A stretch of DNA of 12,477 bases from UHGV virus genome UHGV-0119008; one strand, 5' to 3'. The notes below the pieces were generated by a model. The model worked only from the letters and a program-made list of their open reading frames with translations. It searched no databases and was not told where the DNA came from. This DNA is from a virus. The stretch's first letter is position 1. Every line of letters starts with the position of its first letter. The position numbers and the translations under genes were made by a program. Shown here in pieces: positions 4-12,477 of the stretch.

Positions 4-55
4 CTTGTAATGGGTTAAGTGATAACAGATGTCTGGAAATATAGGGGCAAATCCA
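4..55. repeat. Left copy of 52-bp perfect terminal inverted repeat (partner 12426..12477)
   Basis: 4-55 (cttgtaatgggttaagtgataacagatgtctggaaatataggggcaaatcca) is the exact reverse complement of 12426-12477. The match stops at 55/56 inward. Outward extent is unknown because the window ends (nt 1-3 ggg have no testable partner). Confidence 0.95.
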
Positions 56-350
56 ACTATCATGTATGCACAAAAATAAATTGAAAAGTACACCATGCAG
101 ATAGTTAGCAATTCTTTAGTATCTTTTCTGCTCACACCAACCCCCTTTAGCGTTGTTTAGAATGGCAATCATCATATATCCAAGACATGGCATTTGGTAC
201 ATAGCTTGGGTCGGGATTTCAAGTCCGCTCCCAGTTGATGGGGCCGTTACAGTACGCGCATATCCGCTTTATGTGAAACAGGAAGATTTTTCTGATATCA
301 CTGCCACAGCAAAACACCAATTTCGTGACCAGTACGCGCGCGAGGGGTAT

Positions 351-374
351 CAGTTGCAAAATTTTTTGCAACTG
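351..374. repeat. 24-bp near-perfect palindrome cagttgcaaaa-tt-ttttgcaactg flanked by CCAGTACGC direct repeats
   Basis: 11-bp arms are exact reverse complements around a TT centre. CCAGTACGCGCGCG lies at 329-342 and CCAGTACGC at 382-390, with a related ACAGTACGCGC at 249-259. Confidence 0.8.
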
Positions 375-612
375 CGTCCGACCAGTACGCACACGATGGC
401 GGGGGATACCATAAAACTGTTCTCTACATGAGACAGAGTGGTGGTGATGTGTTGATTATCGGCGTATATGCGCACAGGACGCGCTATGACGATGTTTTAT
501 GCGGGTACACCAATCACATGTATCTGGTGTGATAAATCGCGTTACATGACCTCTCATGTTGTGCTGGTGGTTATCACGACTTTCTGAATCTGGCCTTTGC
601 CTGATATTTTGC

Positions 613-633
613 GACAAGTACGCGCGCGTAGCA
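613..633. repeat. Direct repeat copy A, gacaagTACGCGCGCGTAgca with a (CG)n palindromic core
   Basis: Near-identical to 2003-2025 (copy B carries one extra CG). The core TACGCGCGCGTA is a perfect 12-bp palindrome. Confidence 0.85.
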
Positions 634-656
634 TCGACAGCATACACATTGGATAT

Positions 657-878
657 TCATTTTGTGACCAATGCGATAAGTAGCGGGATAAGAATTGATA
701 AAATCAACAGGCCGATGATCCACTTTTGATTTTCACTGGCCTTATCTCTATTTTCATCAATCTTATCAATAATTCGACGCTCCAATCCGTGCATATCACC
801 GCGAATGGCAATCATCTCATTGCGAACATCAGGGAAGTGGTTGGCTTGATGTTCAATGTGTGGCGTTCTGCCTTTCAT
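657..878 (-). CDS. Small membrane-anchored protein (hypothetical), single C-terminal TM helix
   Basis: 73-aa ORF. SD-like ggtgagga lies a few nt upstream of the ATG on the minus strand. C-terminal stretch IIGLLILSILIPLLIALV is strongly hydrophobic. Same orientation as, and just downstream of, the RHH gene. Confidence 0.5.
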   Translation of the reverse strand: MKGRTPHIEHQANHFPDVRNEMIAIRGDMHGLERRIIDKIDENRDKASENQKWIIGLLILSILIPLLIALVTK

Positions 879-957
879 ATCTGATCCTCACCTATCGTCA
901 CTACCTGCTGGTGTATAAAGGTATTGGCCCAAGCAACTTTCCAATGGGCACTCATGT

Positions 958-1413
958 TTATACGCTGACCTTACAATCAATCACTGCTTTTAGCTTTTCA
1001 GCATTGCTTCCCTGACGCTTCCACGCGCTGTAAATATCTTTATCCCACGCTTTACCAGCTTTTGTTTGATAGCCTGCTTCATTGATCCGTTCAGCTATCA
1101 CACGCCCATTATCAAATCCCTGTTGGATGGTATCGGCAATGATCTTTATAACTGCCGTTTCGTTATATGGTTTTGGTGGGATGTTCGGCTTTCCGGCAAT
1201 AAGCGACGCAGCGGCTTTTTCCATGCGCTCCACCAGCCCAAGCATTCGTGAATCAATAGACTTTTCCGGCTGCCCCAGCTTCATGCGAATCGCATCAACA
1301 AGCCAGGAGGTTTTATCTCCTCCAGAAGCGAGAACAGACCGATTAAACTCATCCTGCAATTCAGATGGGATGCGGAACGCGACCAGATTAGATTTGCTCA
1401 TTGCAAAGACCAT
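958..1413 (-). CDS. Ribbon-helix-helix (Arc/Mnt/CopG-like) DNA-binding protein with ~100-aa C-terminal domain
   Basis: 151-aa ORF. N-terminus NLVAFRIPSELQDEFNRSVLASGGDKTSWLVDAIRMKL has the strand-helix-helix pattern of RHH repressors. Operator-like palindromes lie immediately upstream (1431-1461). Start may be 1413 or the ATG at 1401. Confidence 0.55.
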   Translation of the reverse strand: MVFAMSKSNLVAFRIPSELQDEFNRSVLASGGDKTSWLVDAIRMKLGQPEKSIDSRMLGLVERMEKAAASLIAGKPNIPPKPYNETAVIKIIADTIQQGFDNGRVIAERINEAGYQTKAGKAWDKDIYSAWKRQGSNAEKLKAVIDCKVSV

Positions 1414-10177: not shown

Positions 10178-10195
10178 TAAAAGGAATAATAATAA

Positions 10196-11224
10196 ATGAT
10201 TCTAGGTAATGATTACGTTGATTTAGCTCCTCTGTTCTCTGCGCATAGCACTAGAAATTATCTACTTTCTACTCTCGACTTCACTGATCCGGTGGGCGTT
10301 AGTTCTCATAAAGTAGCTGTTTCCCAGCTTGTCGAAAGCAACGAATCTCTCTTTAACAAAGAGACAAGCCGTTTTAGTTCTGAACACAATGTTACTAAGC
10401 GAGAACAAGGTAAAGAATGGCTGATCGAAATCCCTTACTTCCTGCGTGAAGATGTGATCCGTCCTTCTGATGTTCAAGGCAAGCGTAAGCCTGGCACTGA
10501 TTTTCAGGAAACACTCACTGATATTTATGCTGACTATGTTGCTAAACACCACGTAGCGTATCAGCGTACAAAAGAGAGCGTGCTGGCTGCATCTCTGTTT
10601 AGCGGTAAAACTTACACGCCTAAAACTGATGATGTTCTTATCGAGTGGAGCAAGCTGTTTAACGTATCAGCTATGAAAGCCACTGTGAACGCTTCCAGCA
10701 CTGACACCACGAAGATTTTTAAAGAATTTGATCAGATTGCTACTGACATTATCGAAAAAGCACAGAGTCAGGCGGCGGCTGTAGAGCGAATTGTTGTTTT
10801 CTGTAAGCCGGAAGCCTTCTCTGCAATTCGATTCTCTGCTGGTATGGCAAACGCATTCCAGTATGTAAGCCCACTGGAAGAGGGGAACGTTGTGTATCAG
10901 CGTCGTGACCTGCTGCCAGGGGTGACAGCGTTCACTATTCCAGGAACTAACATTGATGTTGTTAAACTGGTAGATCCGCTACACCTGGCACATATGGCCG
11001 CAGACGCTGTAGCTGTGCCTAAATTCTCTAAGGGTAGCGGAATTTATACCAACATCTACGGGGCTGCTTCCAGCACCTTTGAACTGATTAATGCCGCTCC
11101 TGCTGAGGTGTATAGCTATAGCTATGAATCTTCTCGTGGTGATGCTGTTAACGTTGTTACAGAGAATAGCCAGATGGTGGTAAACCACGGTGTAGGCTTC
11201 TCCGTTCAAATCACTGTTAAATAA
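10196..11224 (+). CDS. Phage major capsid protein, lambda gpE-like family
   Basis: 342 aa (lambda gpE is about 341 aa). Local blocks resemble my recollection of gpE: IEWSK vs TEWSK, ERIVVFCKPEAFSAIRFS vs NIIVFDPKGWALFRS, N-terminal ...PLF.... Ala/Ser/Thr/Val-rich structural-protein composition. Strong terminator immediately downstream. Confidence 0.6.
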   Translation: MILGNDYVDLAPLFSAHSTRNYLLSTLDFTDPVGVSSHKVAVSQLVESNESLFNKETSRFSSEHNVTKREQGKEWLIEIPYFLREDVIRPSDVQGKRKPGTDFQETLTDIYADYVAKHHVAYQRTKESVLAASLFSGKTYTPKTDDVLIEWSKLFNVSAMKATVNASSTDTTKIFKEFDQIATDIIEKAQSQAAAVERIVVFCKPEAFSAIRFSAGMANAFQYVSPLEEGNVVYQRRDLLPGVTAFTIPGTNIDVVKLVDPLHLAHMAADAVAVPKFSKGSGIYTNIYGAASSTFELINAAPAEVYSYSYESSRGDAVNVVTENSQMVVNHGVGFSVQITVK

Positions 11225-11242
11225 TATTTTAACGTGTAATAG

Positions 11243-11280
11243 AGGCGTGGCGTGAATAACACGCTTCGCCTTTTTTTATT
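11243..11280 (+). terminator. Rho-independent terminator downstream of the capsid gene
   Basis: ~12-bp GC-rich stem aggcgtggcgtg / cacgcttcgcct (one mismatch, one G-T), loop aataa, followed by tttttttatttattttt. Confidence 0.7.
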
Positions 11281-11310
11281 TATTTTTAAATTTTGAGAGG
11301 TGATTAAAAT

Positions 11311-11514
11311 ATGGAAGTGATTTTGAAATCAAAAAATGGTGTACACGTACATTTAGATGCTAATGATTCTAGAGGCTTGTTAAATCTGAAATATCTATGT
11401 TCTCTCTTAGATGTTCCCTATGAAGGAGTAAAAGCCCGTATGTTCAGACTAAACGAGAGTATTGATCAGGCTCTACACCATTTCTTAAGCAAAGAAGGTG
11501 GTAAAAATGATTAA
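11311..11514 (+). CDS. Hypothetical small protein (67 aa)
   Basis: ATG preceded by gagaggtga SD. Lies between the capsid gene and the coiled-coil ORF. Confidence 0.5.
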   Translation: MEVILKSKNGVHVHLDANDSRGLLNLKYLCSLLDVPYEGVKARMFRLNESIDQALHHFLSKEGGKND

Positions 11515-11528
11515 TAAGGGGATTTTAA

Positions 11529-12477
11529 ATGTTAGAAATTAACACTTCTAAAATTAAGAACACAGTTACATTTAGTGTAGATAAAGACAGCTTGAAAAAA
11601 GCGAAAGACTCTATTACAGGCTTAAAGGAATTCGCAGAGAACATTAAGCCAGCTAAATTAAGATTTGATACTGTCACTAAAGGCTATAAGAAAGCACAAA
11701 GTGAAGTAGACAAGATTGCCCAGCAAAAAGCGAAAAACGAAAAACAGAATCAAAGAGCACAAGCTGCCGCAGCAAGAGCACAGGCAAGGCAACAGCAACA
11801 AATAGCAGCACGTAAAGAGAAAGCAGAATTAAAACTCCTCGATGTGTCAAGCTCTATCAGTGCAATGCACCGTCTCTCTGTAGCTGAACAATACAAAGCT
11901 ATTGCACAGGCTAGAGAAATTGCCCTCCAATATGAAAGAGGCGCTATTAGTCTGGCACGTATGAATAGCCAGATGAAACGCTTACAACAGCAACAACGTA
12001 AGATTAATGGCAACAGAAAAGCACAATTAGCCCCCGTTAAGGGAGGAGGATCAGGGAATTCCGCCACTATGGGCGCTCTGTTATTTGGAGGCGCTACGGC
12101 TGCTGCTGGCGTGATGGCTGTTAGTAAAGCGTCGGAGTTTGTTAGTAGCAGTTTCGCTAACGCAGAGACCCAAGGGGAGCTAATCCAACGTGCAAGGCTT
12201 GGCGGTGTAGACGTTAACCAGATGTATAATATTACAGAATGGGCGTATAGAAACGGCGTTGACTCTATGATGGGTGATCAAGGGGCTAGGAAATACCTGG
12301 ATCAGATGAAAGATGTTAGGGAACGTGCCGCAAAATCCTACAGTGAAGCTGAATTGGTGAAAGACAAGAAAACCGGAAAATCTGAATGGAAAGGCGGTGA
12401 TAATGCTATTAATGAACTTCTAAACTGGATTTGCCCCTATATTTCCAGACATCTGTTATCACTTAACCCATTACAAG
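11529..12477 (+). CDS. 3'-truncated ORF (at least 316 codons, no stop in window): coiled-coil protein with Gly/Ala-rich hydrophobic segment, tape-measure-like
   Basis: ATG at 11529 with aagggg SD. My own translation is continuous to the window end. N-terminal Lys/Gln/Ala-rich helical region (AQAAAARAQARQQQQIAARKEKAELK), then GGGSGNSATMGALLFGGATAAAGVMAV. The last 52 nt are the right inverted-repeat copy. Confidence 0.55.
   Translation, partial: MLEINTSKIKNTVTFSVDKDSLKKAKDSITGLKEFAENIKPAKLRFDTVTKGYKKAQSEVDKIAQQKAKNEKQNQRAQAAAARAQARQQQQIAARKEKAELKLLDVSSSISAMHRLSVAEQYKAIAQAREIALQYERGAISLARMNSQMKRLQQQQRKINGNRKAQLAPVKGGGSGNSATMGALLFGGATAAAGVMAVSKASEFVSSSFANAETQGELIQRARLGGVDVNQMYNITEWAYRNGVDSMMGDQGARKYLDQMKDVRERAAKSYSEAELVKDKKTGKSEWKGGDNAINELLNWICPYISRHLLSLNPLQ
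12426..12477. repeat. Right copy of the 52-bp perfect terminal inverted repeat
   Basis: Exact reverse complement of 4-55. Lies inside the truncated ORF 11529..>12477. Confidence 0.95.

What the first reader, a model, noticed from the sequence alone, without database searches (positions are those of the whole stretch)
4..12477. Perfect 52-bp inverted repeat at both window termini, right copy inside a coding sequence
Positions 4-55 and 12426-12477 are exact reverse complements. The right copy lies within the reading frame of the tape-measure-like ORF, while the left copy has a stop 16 codons in and no start codon. The repeat may extend outward beyond the window. Candidate explanations: (a) inverted duplication of a gene fragment bracketing an invertible or rearranged 12.4-kb segment; (b) non-autonomous mobile element with long terminal inverted repeats, since no transposase or recombinase is present inside; (c) sequenced-through hairpin telomeres of a small linear replicon; (d) assembly artefact.
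Basis: seen in the sequence. Interest (0 to 1): 0.75.

Follow-up and report, generated by a model that had tools for sequence, protein, structure and literature searches.

The report
Contig bounded by two IS2 ends
The perfect inverted repeat at the two ends of the window is simply the right-hand tip of the common E. coli insertion sequence IS2, present because this short-read metagenome contig stops where it runs into two oppositely oriented IS2 copies; it is ordinary.

Summary
Window 4-55 and 12426-12477 are exact reverse complements, with about 1e-23 such pairs expected by chance. Window 1-55 is 100% identical to nt 1277-1331 of the 1331-bp insertion sequence IS2 (IS3 family): the last 14 codons and stop of the transposase, plus the 41-bp right inverted repeat (IRR). 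The right arm is the same sequence reverse-complemented. This sequence occurs at 10,862 places in 3,158 of 5,426 complete E. coli genomes. The window is the whole of a SPAdes-style metagenome contig (NODE_4002_length_12477_cov_5.37). It therefore breaks where it enters a multi-copy repeat, and 55 nt is, from my own knowledge, the largest default metaSPAdes k-mer. Both IS2 tips face inward, so the IS2 bodies lie outside the window. The 12.4 kb is chromosomal island DNA at tRNA-Thr (thrW) between two IS copies, not an element with terminal repeats. In the closest finished genome (E. coli AF3, 99.6%) a full IS2 sits at exactly the right junction with a 5-bp target duplication (TAAAC). It splits a 611-aa tape-measure-like gene that is intact in relatives. 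The left insertion is an empty site in relatives and in every complete genome searched. Hairpin telomere and TIR-element models are rejected. Novelty: already known.

The parts
1..55 (+). 3' terminal 55 nt of IS2 copy A (IS2 nt 1277-1331). The body of this copy lies to the left, outside the window.
   Evidence: 100% identity to IS2 1277-1331 taken from L001. In L001 the annotated IS2 transposase CDS ends 11 nt before the end of the match. The same 55-mer matches at 10,862 places annotated 'IS3-like element IS2 family transposase'.
3..44 (+). Last 13 codons plus the stop (TAG, 42-44) of the IS2 transposase (OrfB/OrfAB): ACNGLSDNRCLEI*
   Evidence: Translation. The CDS end coordinate in L001 is 1644, which corresponds to window 44.
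15..55 (+). 41-bp right inverted repeat (IRR) of IS2 copy A, ending in the donor CA-3' at 54-55. It contains the outward -35 TGGAAA at 34-39.
   Evidence: The IRR length of 41 bp, the CA-3' terminus and the outward -35 come from PMC3299598 and PMC3219604.
56..60 (.). ACTAT: presumed 5-bp target site of the left IS2 insertion. Only one copy is visible; the second would lie beyond the IRL end, outside the window.
   Evidence: This is an inference. L002 and L003 read ...CTCATCTGGG|ACTATCATG... without interruption across this point. The far junction was not found.
56..135 (-). First 26 codons of a 204-aa hypothetical gene (weakly SieA-like) that the left IS2 cuts.
   Evidence: AF3 annotates the intact CDS at L002 5466-6080 (-), and L002 6001 corresponds to window 56. 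Translation is. phrog_7745 matches at E = 4e-4 only.
11529..12425 (+). 5' half (about 299 codons) of a 611-aa tape-measure-like gene truncated by the right IS2.
   Evidence: The intact 611-aa homologue (L003 18743-20578) matches phrog_16051 'tail length tape measure protein' at E = 7e-53. AF3 annotates the two halves as pseudogene fragments on either side of IS2.
12421..12425 (.). TAAAC: the 5-bp target-site duplication copy next to the IRR of the right IS2.
   Evidence: In AF3 the identical junction is ...CTTCTAAAC|IS2(1331 bp)|TAAACATCGG. Removing IS2 and one TAAAC gives a gapless 295-nt match to the IS-free L003.
12426..12477 (-). 3' terminal 52 nt of IS2 copy B (IS2 nt 1280-1331, reverse complement). 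The IRR is 12426-12466, and the body lies to the right, outside the window.
   Evidence: 100% identity to IS2 1280-1331 on the minus strand. AF3 has a full IS2 at L002 18404-19734 in this orientation, with a junction 100% identical over 80 nt.

Best explanation
The two arms are the right-hand ends (the 41-bp IRR plus the last 11-14 nt upstream, inside the transposase gene) of two separate copies of insertion sequence IS2. The copies have inserted in opposite orientation, tail to tail with IRR tips facing each other, about 12.4 kb apart in a prophage/satellite-like island at the thrW tRNA-Thr site of an E. coli chromosome. Each copy arrived by ordinary IS3-family copy-out/paste-in transposition: IRR is cleaved and joined next to IRL, giving a figure-of-eight, then a minicircle, then insertion with a 5-bp target duplication. 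The right copy splits a tape-measure-like gene. The left copy splits a small hypothetical gene. IS2 is multi-copy in E. coli, so a short-read de Bruijn assembler cannot traverse it. The unique 12,370 bp was therefore output as one contig carrying about one k-mer (55 and 52 nt) of IS2 at each end. That is why a perfect inverted repeat sits exactly at the window termini. Shown here: the identity of the arms, their orientation, the full IS2 with TSD at the right site in a finished genome, the empty sites in relatives, and that the window equals the whole contig. Inferred: that the left copy is a full-length simple insertion with an ACTAT duplication, that both copies are in the same genome, and that k = 55 explains the arm length.
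For:: a perfect 52-nt inverted repeat; the arms equal IS2 nt 1277-1331 and 1280-1331 at 100%, and nothing else in the window resembles IS2; the 55-mer occurs at 10,862 places in 3,158 of 5,426 complete E. coli genomes (median 2 per genome, up to 29), annotated as IS2 transposase; the match covers the 3' end of the annotated IS2 transposase CDS plus 11 nt. E. coli AF3 matches window 56-12477 at 99.6% and has a complete IS2 at the identical right junction; that IS2 has a 5-bp TAAAC duplication, the empty site is restored in L003, and the left site is uninterrupted in L002 and L003. Both arms stop exactly at the IS2 terminal nucleotide; the window is ENA contig NODE_4002_length_12477_cov_5.366608, and one search shows it is identical to L004. 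(PMC3299598, PMC3219604): IS2 is about 1.3 kb, has a 41-bp IRR ending in CA-3', and transposes in two steps through a minicircle.
Against: The bodies of both IS2 copies lie outside the window, so for the left copy only 55 nt are seen. Its far junction and target duplication were not found. The left junction occurs in none of the 5,426 complete genomes. The right arm is 52 nt, not 55, which the simple k = 55 account does not explain by itself. One possibility is that another IS2 copy in the sample shares the 3 flanking bases. Coverage is only about 5x. In a metagenome the two insertions could in principle belong to different co-existing strains.
Confidence: 0.94

Rival explanations
1. Compound (composite) transposon or TIR-bounded non-autonomous element. 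The 12.4 kb, with or without the two flanking IS2 copies, would be one mobile unit moved by IS2 transposase.
For: Two copies of the same IS flank a segment in inverted orientation, which is the general layout of compound transposons. No transposase or recombinase is encoded inside.
Against: The IS2 tips face inward, so the window itself is not bounded by outward-facing ends. The outer ends of an IS2-segment-IS2 unit would both be IRL. [quoted passage not shown] The interior sits in its native chromosomal context at thrW in AF3, L003 and SA186 with one IS2 or none. The two insertions have different distributions: the right one is shared with AF3 and the left one is unique. That indicates two independent insertion events rather than arrival as a unit.
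Confidence: 0.02
2. Invertible segment. The inverted IS2 pair mediates flipping of the 12.4-kb segment by homologous recombination, so inversion isomers exist in the population.
For: Inverted repeats of 1.3 kb lying 12.4 kb apart are a substrate for RecA-dependent inversion (general knowledge). The contig would look identical in either orientation, so the data do not exclude it.
Against: There is no evidence for it. No site-specific invertase is present inside. No complete genome carries both copies. Inversion would merely swap two gene fragments that are already disrupted, with no evident switch function.
Confidence: 0.03
3. Chimeric or erroneous assembly. One junction, most plausibly the left, would be a false join at low coverage, and no IS2 is really there.
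For: Coverage is about 5x. The left junction is absent from 5,426 complete E. coli genomes, from the species-representative genomes and from JGI metagenomes.
Against: The join falls exactly at the terminal CA-3' nucleotide of IS2. That is what transposition produces and is improbable for a random chimera. New strain-specific IS insertions are commonplace. The same contig is recorded in 2 samples.
Confidence: 0.03
4. Sequenced-through hairpin telomeres of a small linear replicon or linear phage-plasmid.
For: The only support is the formal resemblance: identical inverted sequence at both ends of a phage-like contig.
Against: The arms are IS2, a sequence found at about 10,900 chromosomal and plasmid sites. 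The interior is colinear with a chromosomal island flanked by proA/thrW and yagU in three finished genomes. Both ends interrupt genes whose other halves exist beyond IS2. No protelomerase or other recombinase is present.
Confidence: 0.003

Closest known systems
IS2 (IS3 family, IS2 group) of Escherichia coli
   Same: Both arms are 100% identical to the IS2 right end, including the transposase C-terminus, the complete 41-bp IRR and the terminal CA-3'. In the closest genome the right copy is 1331 bp with a programmed-frameshift transposase and a 5-bp target duplication.
   Different: Nothing differs in kind. Only 52-55 nt of each copy lie inside the window. The left insertion site is not seen in any finished genome searched.
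Short-read contig ends collapsed at multi-copy repeats (de Bruijn graph break at IS elements)
   Same: The window is a whole SPAdes-named contig whose ends carry 55 and 52 nt of a repeat with many copies per genome. The unique sequence lies in between.
   Different: The right arm is 3 nt shorter than k = 55. The assembly graph itself was not available to confirm the branching.
Compound transposons flanked by inverted IS copies (such as Tn10 and Tn5)
   Same: Two copies of one IS, in inverted orientation, bracket a DNA segment.
   Different: The outer ends would both be IRL, which are donor-inactive in IS2. The two copies were evidently acquired separately. The segment sits in its native island context and carries no selectable cargo. 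There is no evidence that it moves as a unit.
CP4-6-type islands at thrW (tRNA-Thr) in E. coli
   Same: The interior lies between proA-thrW and yagU with a distal tyrosine integrase. From my own knowledge, this is the CP4-6 prophage site and the position of intF in K-12.
   Different: The gene content here is different: a compact element of about 12 kb with a lambda-E-like capsid gene, a tape-measure-like gene and a Dit-like gene, preceded by a second tandem island.

Membership tests
IS2 (IS3 family insertion sequence) | Terminal right inverted repeat (IRR, 41 bp) ending in CA-3' | tested here: met
   Window 15-55 and 12426-12466 are identical to the last 41 nt of IS2 from L001 and end in CA. 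The IRR definition comes from PMC3299598.
IS2 (IS3 family insertion sequence) | Transposase made from orfA/orfB by programmed -1 frameshift, with the 3' end overlapping the IRR | tested here: inconclusive
   Only the last 13 codons plus the stop lie inside the window, and they match exactly. At the right site in AF3 the full frameshifted transposase is annotated. For the left copy the body lies outside the window.
IS2 (IS3 family insertion sequence) | Full element of about 1331 bp with an imperfect IRL (42 bp, TAGACTGG...) at the other end | tested here: inconclusive
   This is met for the right copy in AF3, where IS2 1-1331 aligns at 99.5% to L002 19734-18404. It is not testable for either copy in the source contig itself.
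IS2 (IS3 family insertion sequence) | 5-bp direct target-site duplication | tested here: met
   For the right copy, TAAAC lies on both sides in AF3 and the empty site exists in L003. For the left copy only one flank is visible (ACTAT), and the predicted far junction was not found in JGI metagenomes.
IS2 (IS3 family insertion sequence) | Multi-copy and dispersed in E. coli genomes | tested here: met
   10,862 places in 3,158 of 5,426 genomes, on chromosomes and plasmids.
Compound transposon | Outward-facing, transposition-competent IS ends at both outer boundaries | tested here: not met
   The orientation found puts IRL at both outer boundaries. IRL lacks donor function, and two-left-end derivatives give no minicircles (PMC3299598).
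Compound transposon | The whole unit is found at more than one location, with a target duplication flanking the unit | tested here: not met
   No complete genome carries both junctions. The interior is always found at thrW.
Linear replicon with hairpin telomeres | The terminal palindrome is the physical end of the molecule, and a protelomerase is encoded | tested here: not met
   In AF3 the sequence continues beyond the arm as IS2 and then chromosome. No protelomerase or recombinase domain is found inside.
Site-specific invertible DNA segment (Hin/Gin/Fim-type) | Short inverted recombination sites plus a cognate invertase nearby | tested here: not met
   The arms are IS2 ends. No invertase is encoded inside. 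The small serine recombinase present in relative L003 is absent from the window.

The most novel reading that the evidence does not exclude
The inverted IS2 pair could be more than two unrelated insertions. It might form a roughly 15-kb unit that flips or is excised by IS2-IS2 recombination, toggling or deleting the capsid and replication module of a satellite-like thrW element. The helix-turn-helix cassette of that element is about 98% identical to a gene start in lytic phapecoctaviruses. Separately from the finding itself, that element could be an uncharacterised phage satellite of large virulent E. coli phages.
Probability: 0.03. Interest if true: 0.3.

Novelty: already known. Interest (0 to 1): 0.06.

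Why it matters
For the repeat itself it matters very little. IS2 has been known since the 1970s, and contigs that end in IS fragments are routine in short-read assemblies. The practical value is negative evidence. This window should not be counted as a candidate new mobile element, linear replicon or invertible switch. Perfect inverted or direct repeats of about k-mer length at contig termini should be screened against IS ends before anyone interprets them. The biological content is modest: one lineage-shared IS2 insertion inactivates a tape-measure-like gene of a thrW island, and a second, strain-specific IS2 insertion lies 12.4 kb away.

Tried and rejected
(1) I searched for the source or a sibling contig by exact junction patterns. 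The left junction was searched in genome contigs and metagenome contigs, the right junction in genome contigs, and the predicted IRL-side junction with an ACTAT duplication in metagenome contigs. All gave 0 hits. The source was found instead through an exact-protein look-up of the capsid gene.

(2) I looked for a finished genome with both IS2 junctions and found none. Inversion isomers and compound-unit movement therefore could not be examined.

(3) tRNA and Rfam scans of the window found nothing. Only an 11-nt remnant of the thrW 3' end marks the junction of the two tandem islands.

(4) A PADLOC scan of 10 interior ORFs gave no defence-system hit.

(5) tblastn with the small recombinase present in relative L003 found no trace in the window.

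(6) I considered finding the neighbouring contigs of the same assembly through the search for homologous proteins followed by the look-up of encoding contigs. I did not run this. It needs exact protein identity, the chance of success seemed low, and the search is expensive for a question whose answer would not change the verdict.

(7) The 14-nt exact copy of an IRR segment at 3717-3730 (TCTGTTATCACTTA) was judged to be chance (blast E = 0.12).

(8) The 52 versus 55 nt asymmetry of the arms could not be resolved without the assembly graph.
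Full report
**Observation.** Window 4-55 and 12426-12477 are 52 nt long and 100% reverse-complementary, with 12,370 nt between them. From the window's base composition, about 1.7e-23 such pairs are expected by chance. The left end has three further bases (ggg, 1-3) that belong to the same repeated unit.

**What the arms are.** A search with the first 55 bases against 5,426 complete E. coli genomes gave 10,862 places in 3,158 genomes. The median is 2 per genome and the maximum is 29, on chromosomes and plasmids. 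All listed hits are annotated 'IS3-like element IS2 family transposase'. In one such copy (L001) the match covers the last 44 nt of the frameshifted IS2 transposase CDS plus the 11 nt that follow it. I took the 1331 bp ending there as IS2 and compared it with the window. Window 1-55 equals IS2 1277-1331 on the plus strand. Window 12477-12426 equals IS2 1280-1331 on the minus strand. Both are 100% identical, and nothing else in the window resembles IS2 beyond chance.

The two ends of that IS2 copy read TAGACTGGCCCC... (left) and TGGATTTGCCCC... (right, reverse-complemented). That is the imperfect IRL/IRR pair described for IS2. The literature gives IRR as 41 bp ending in CA-3' and IRL as 42 bp (PMC3299598), and the element as about 1.3 kb (PMC3219604). 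The left arm's short open frame translates to ACNGLSDNRCLEI*, the transposase C-terminus.

**Orientation.** The IS2 terminal nucleotide (…CCA-3') is at window 55 on the left, and its complement starts at 12426 on the right. Both IS2 tips therefore face inward, and both IS2 bodies lie outside the window: IS2→ [12,370 bp] ←IS2. The window is not a unit bounded by its own terminal inverted repeats. It is the DNA between two insertion sequences.

**Why the arms sit exactly at the termini.** An exact-protein look-up of the capsid gene returned the source: ENA assembly ERZ1309543, contig NODE_4002_length_12477_cov_5.366608. The retrieved stretch is identical to window 196-12477. The window is thus a complete SPAdes-style metagenome contig at about 5x coverage. 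Short-read assemblies break at repeats longer than the reads or the k-mer. This is general knowledge, and the abstract of bioRxiv 10.1101/054783 seen says as much. A de Bruijn contig keeps about one k-mer of the repeat at each end. The left arm is exactly 55 nt, which from my own knowledge is the largest default k of metaSPAdes. The right arm is 52 nt. That could arise if another IS2 copy in the sample shares the three flanking bases AAC, but this is inference and was not tested.

**The two insertions.** The best finished match is E. coli AF3 (NZ_OZ547117.1). It aligns to window 56-12477 at 99.6%. AF3 has a complete 1331-bp IS2 at exactly the right junction, with 80 of 80 nt identical across the junction. 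That IS2 is flanked by a 5-bp direct duplication, TAAAC. Deleting IS2 and one TAAAC gives a gapless 295-nt match (98.3%) to the IS-free relative L003. This is a textbook simple insertion.

The right IS2 splits a gene that is 611 aa in L003. The intact protein matches PHROG 16051, 'tail length tape measure protein', at E = 7e-53. Its apparent continuation through the right arm is IS2 sequence read antisense.

Among complete genomes the right junction occurs only in AF3. The left junction occurs in none. In AF3 and L003 the sequence runs uninterrupted across window 55|56, inside a 204-aa hypothetical gene of which the window retains the first 26 codons. The likeliest history is one older insertion shared with the AF3 lineage plus one newer, strain-specific insertion.

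The far side of the left copy is not in the window. The predicted IRL junction with an ACTAT duplication was not found in JGI metagenomes. 'Simple insertion' for the left copy therefore remains inferred.

**Mechanism.** IS2 transposes by the IS3-family two-step route. IRR is cleaved and joined next to IRL to form a figure-of-eight. This is converted into a minicircle, and the abutted ends then attack the target (PMC3299598 and PMC3219604). IRR is the exclusive donor in step I. IRL lacks donor function, and derivatives with two left ends make no minicircles. An IS2-segment-IS2 unit here would have IRL at both outer boundaries, so it is not expected to move as a compound transposon.

**Rivals.** The hairpin-telomere or linear-replicon model fails on three counts. 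The arms are a dispersed IS. The interior is colinear with a chromosomal island between proA/thrW and yagU in three finished genomes. In AF3 the sequence continues beyond the arm.

A TIR-bounded non-autonomous element fails on tip orientation. Inversion by recombination between the two IS2 copies is physically possible and cannot be tested from a contig, which would look the same either way. There is no evidence for it, and no invertase is encoded inside.

A chimeric left junction is unlikely because the join is exactly at the IS2 terminal nucleotide. At 5x coverage it deserves a read-mapping check all the same.

**Context.** The window spans the junction of two tandem islands at thrW. Window 56 to about 3653 (44-54% GC) carries a PerC-family gene and a PRiA4_ORF3-family gene. 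From 3654 onward (33-41% GC) lies a compact element that in strain SA186 sits alone between tRNA-Thr and yagU. An 11-nt remnant of the tRNA 3' end is at 3654-3664.

That element encodes:
- an O-like initiator or HTH protein;
- a lambda-E-like major capsid protein (PF03864);
- the tape-measure-like protein;
- a Dit-like tail protein (PF21821);
- a distal tyrosine integrase.

No portal or terminase is annotated. The 5.4-kb query window 7000-12425, which lies within this element, is covered at 80% or more in 286 of 5,426 complete genomes.

**Verdict.** The repeat is real but ordinary: two IS2 right ends at the edges of a short-read contig. Novelty is 'already known' and interest is low. Side observations are listed separately.

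Noticed in passing
window 7395-7700 (within ORF 7406-8083); L008 2501-2898: The ribosome-binding region and the first ~100 codons (winged-helix / HTH_36 domain) of the O-like initiator gene are about 98% identical at the DNA level to the start of a 328-aa hypothetical gene of the lytic 151-kb Escherichia phage Mt1B1_P17 (Phapecoctavirus). They are 95.7% identical to phage BI-EHEC. AF3's ortholog has an identical C-terminal ~90 aa but a different N-terminal domain. L003 and SA186 share the window's version. This looks like a recent DNA-binding-domain cassette exchange between a chromosomal island and large virulent phages.
   Followed up: partly
window 3654-12425 plus the downstream part seen in L002 19734-22782 and L007 5001-17067: This is a compact element of about 12 kb at thrW. 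It has an initiator-like gene, a lambda-E-like capsid gene, a tape-measure-like gene, a Dit-like gene and a distal integrase, but no annotated portal, terminase or lysis genes. A 5.4-kb query within it (window 7000-12425) is covered at 80% or more in 286 of 5,426 complete E. coli genomes, and no phage record holds more than short pieces of the interior (window 56-12425). It could be a degraded prophage or an uncharacterised phage satellite.
   Followed up: partly
window 3654-7000: The left 3.3 kb of that element is gene-poor. PGAP annotates one 52-aa CDS in SA186 and AF3, and the ENA calls add a 128-aa ORF. Yet it is as conserved as the coding part or more so (95-99% versus 87-98% identity to SA186 and L003). 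It contains iteron-like CTTATCTTACTTA repeats at 6264-6331 and a near-consensus promoter-like site at 6856-6884, just ahead of the rightward operon. There is no Rfam match. It may be an origin or regulatory region, or an unannotated RNA.
   Followed up: partly
window 3654-3664: The 11-nt sequence TCCTATTATCG is identical to part of the 3' end of tRNA-Thr (thrW). It lies where many genomes place this sequence directly next to thrW. It is probably the att remnant between two tandemly integrated islands. GC content drops from about 50% to about 37% here.
   Followed up: partly
window 34-63: The outward-facing -35 of the IS2 IRR (TGGAAA, 34-39) together with TATCAT at 58-63 in the flank gives a weak hybrid promoter-like site (9/12, 18-nt spacer) reading into the island. 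It would run antisense to the remnant of the disrupted gene. No comparable site was flagged at the right junction (the -35 in the right end is described in PMC3219604).
   Followed up: no
window 315-346, 380-399, 601-632, 1991-2022: There are four copies of a motif of about 20-30 nt, (T)TTCG-GAC(A/C)AGTACGCGCGCG, in the higher-GC left island. The copies at 601 and 1991 are 89% alike over 28 nt and lie near the 5' ends of minus-strand ORFs (456-647 and 1651-2070). They could be a shared regulatory site or paralogous gene starts. This remains unexplained.
   Followed up: partly
window 637-1003 and 4854-5242, compared with L003: There are cargo swaps relative to the relative L003. L003 carries an Abi-family gene where the window has two small hypothetical ORFs (657-878 and 958-1413, minus strand). 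L003 also carries a 179-aa serine recombinase where the window has a 128-aa ORF (4778-5164). None of the window ORFs matched PADLOC defence models.
   Followed up: partly
window 1-3 versus 12477: The arms are unequal: 55 nt of IS2 on the left and 52 nt on the right. The value 55 fits a k = 55 de Bruijn vertex. The 3-nt shortfall on the right would fit another IS2 copy in the sample sharing the flank AAC, or end trimming. This was not testable here.
   Followed up: no
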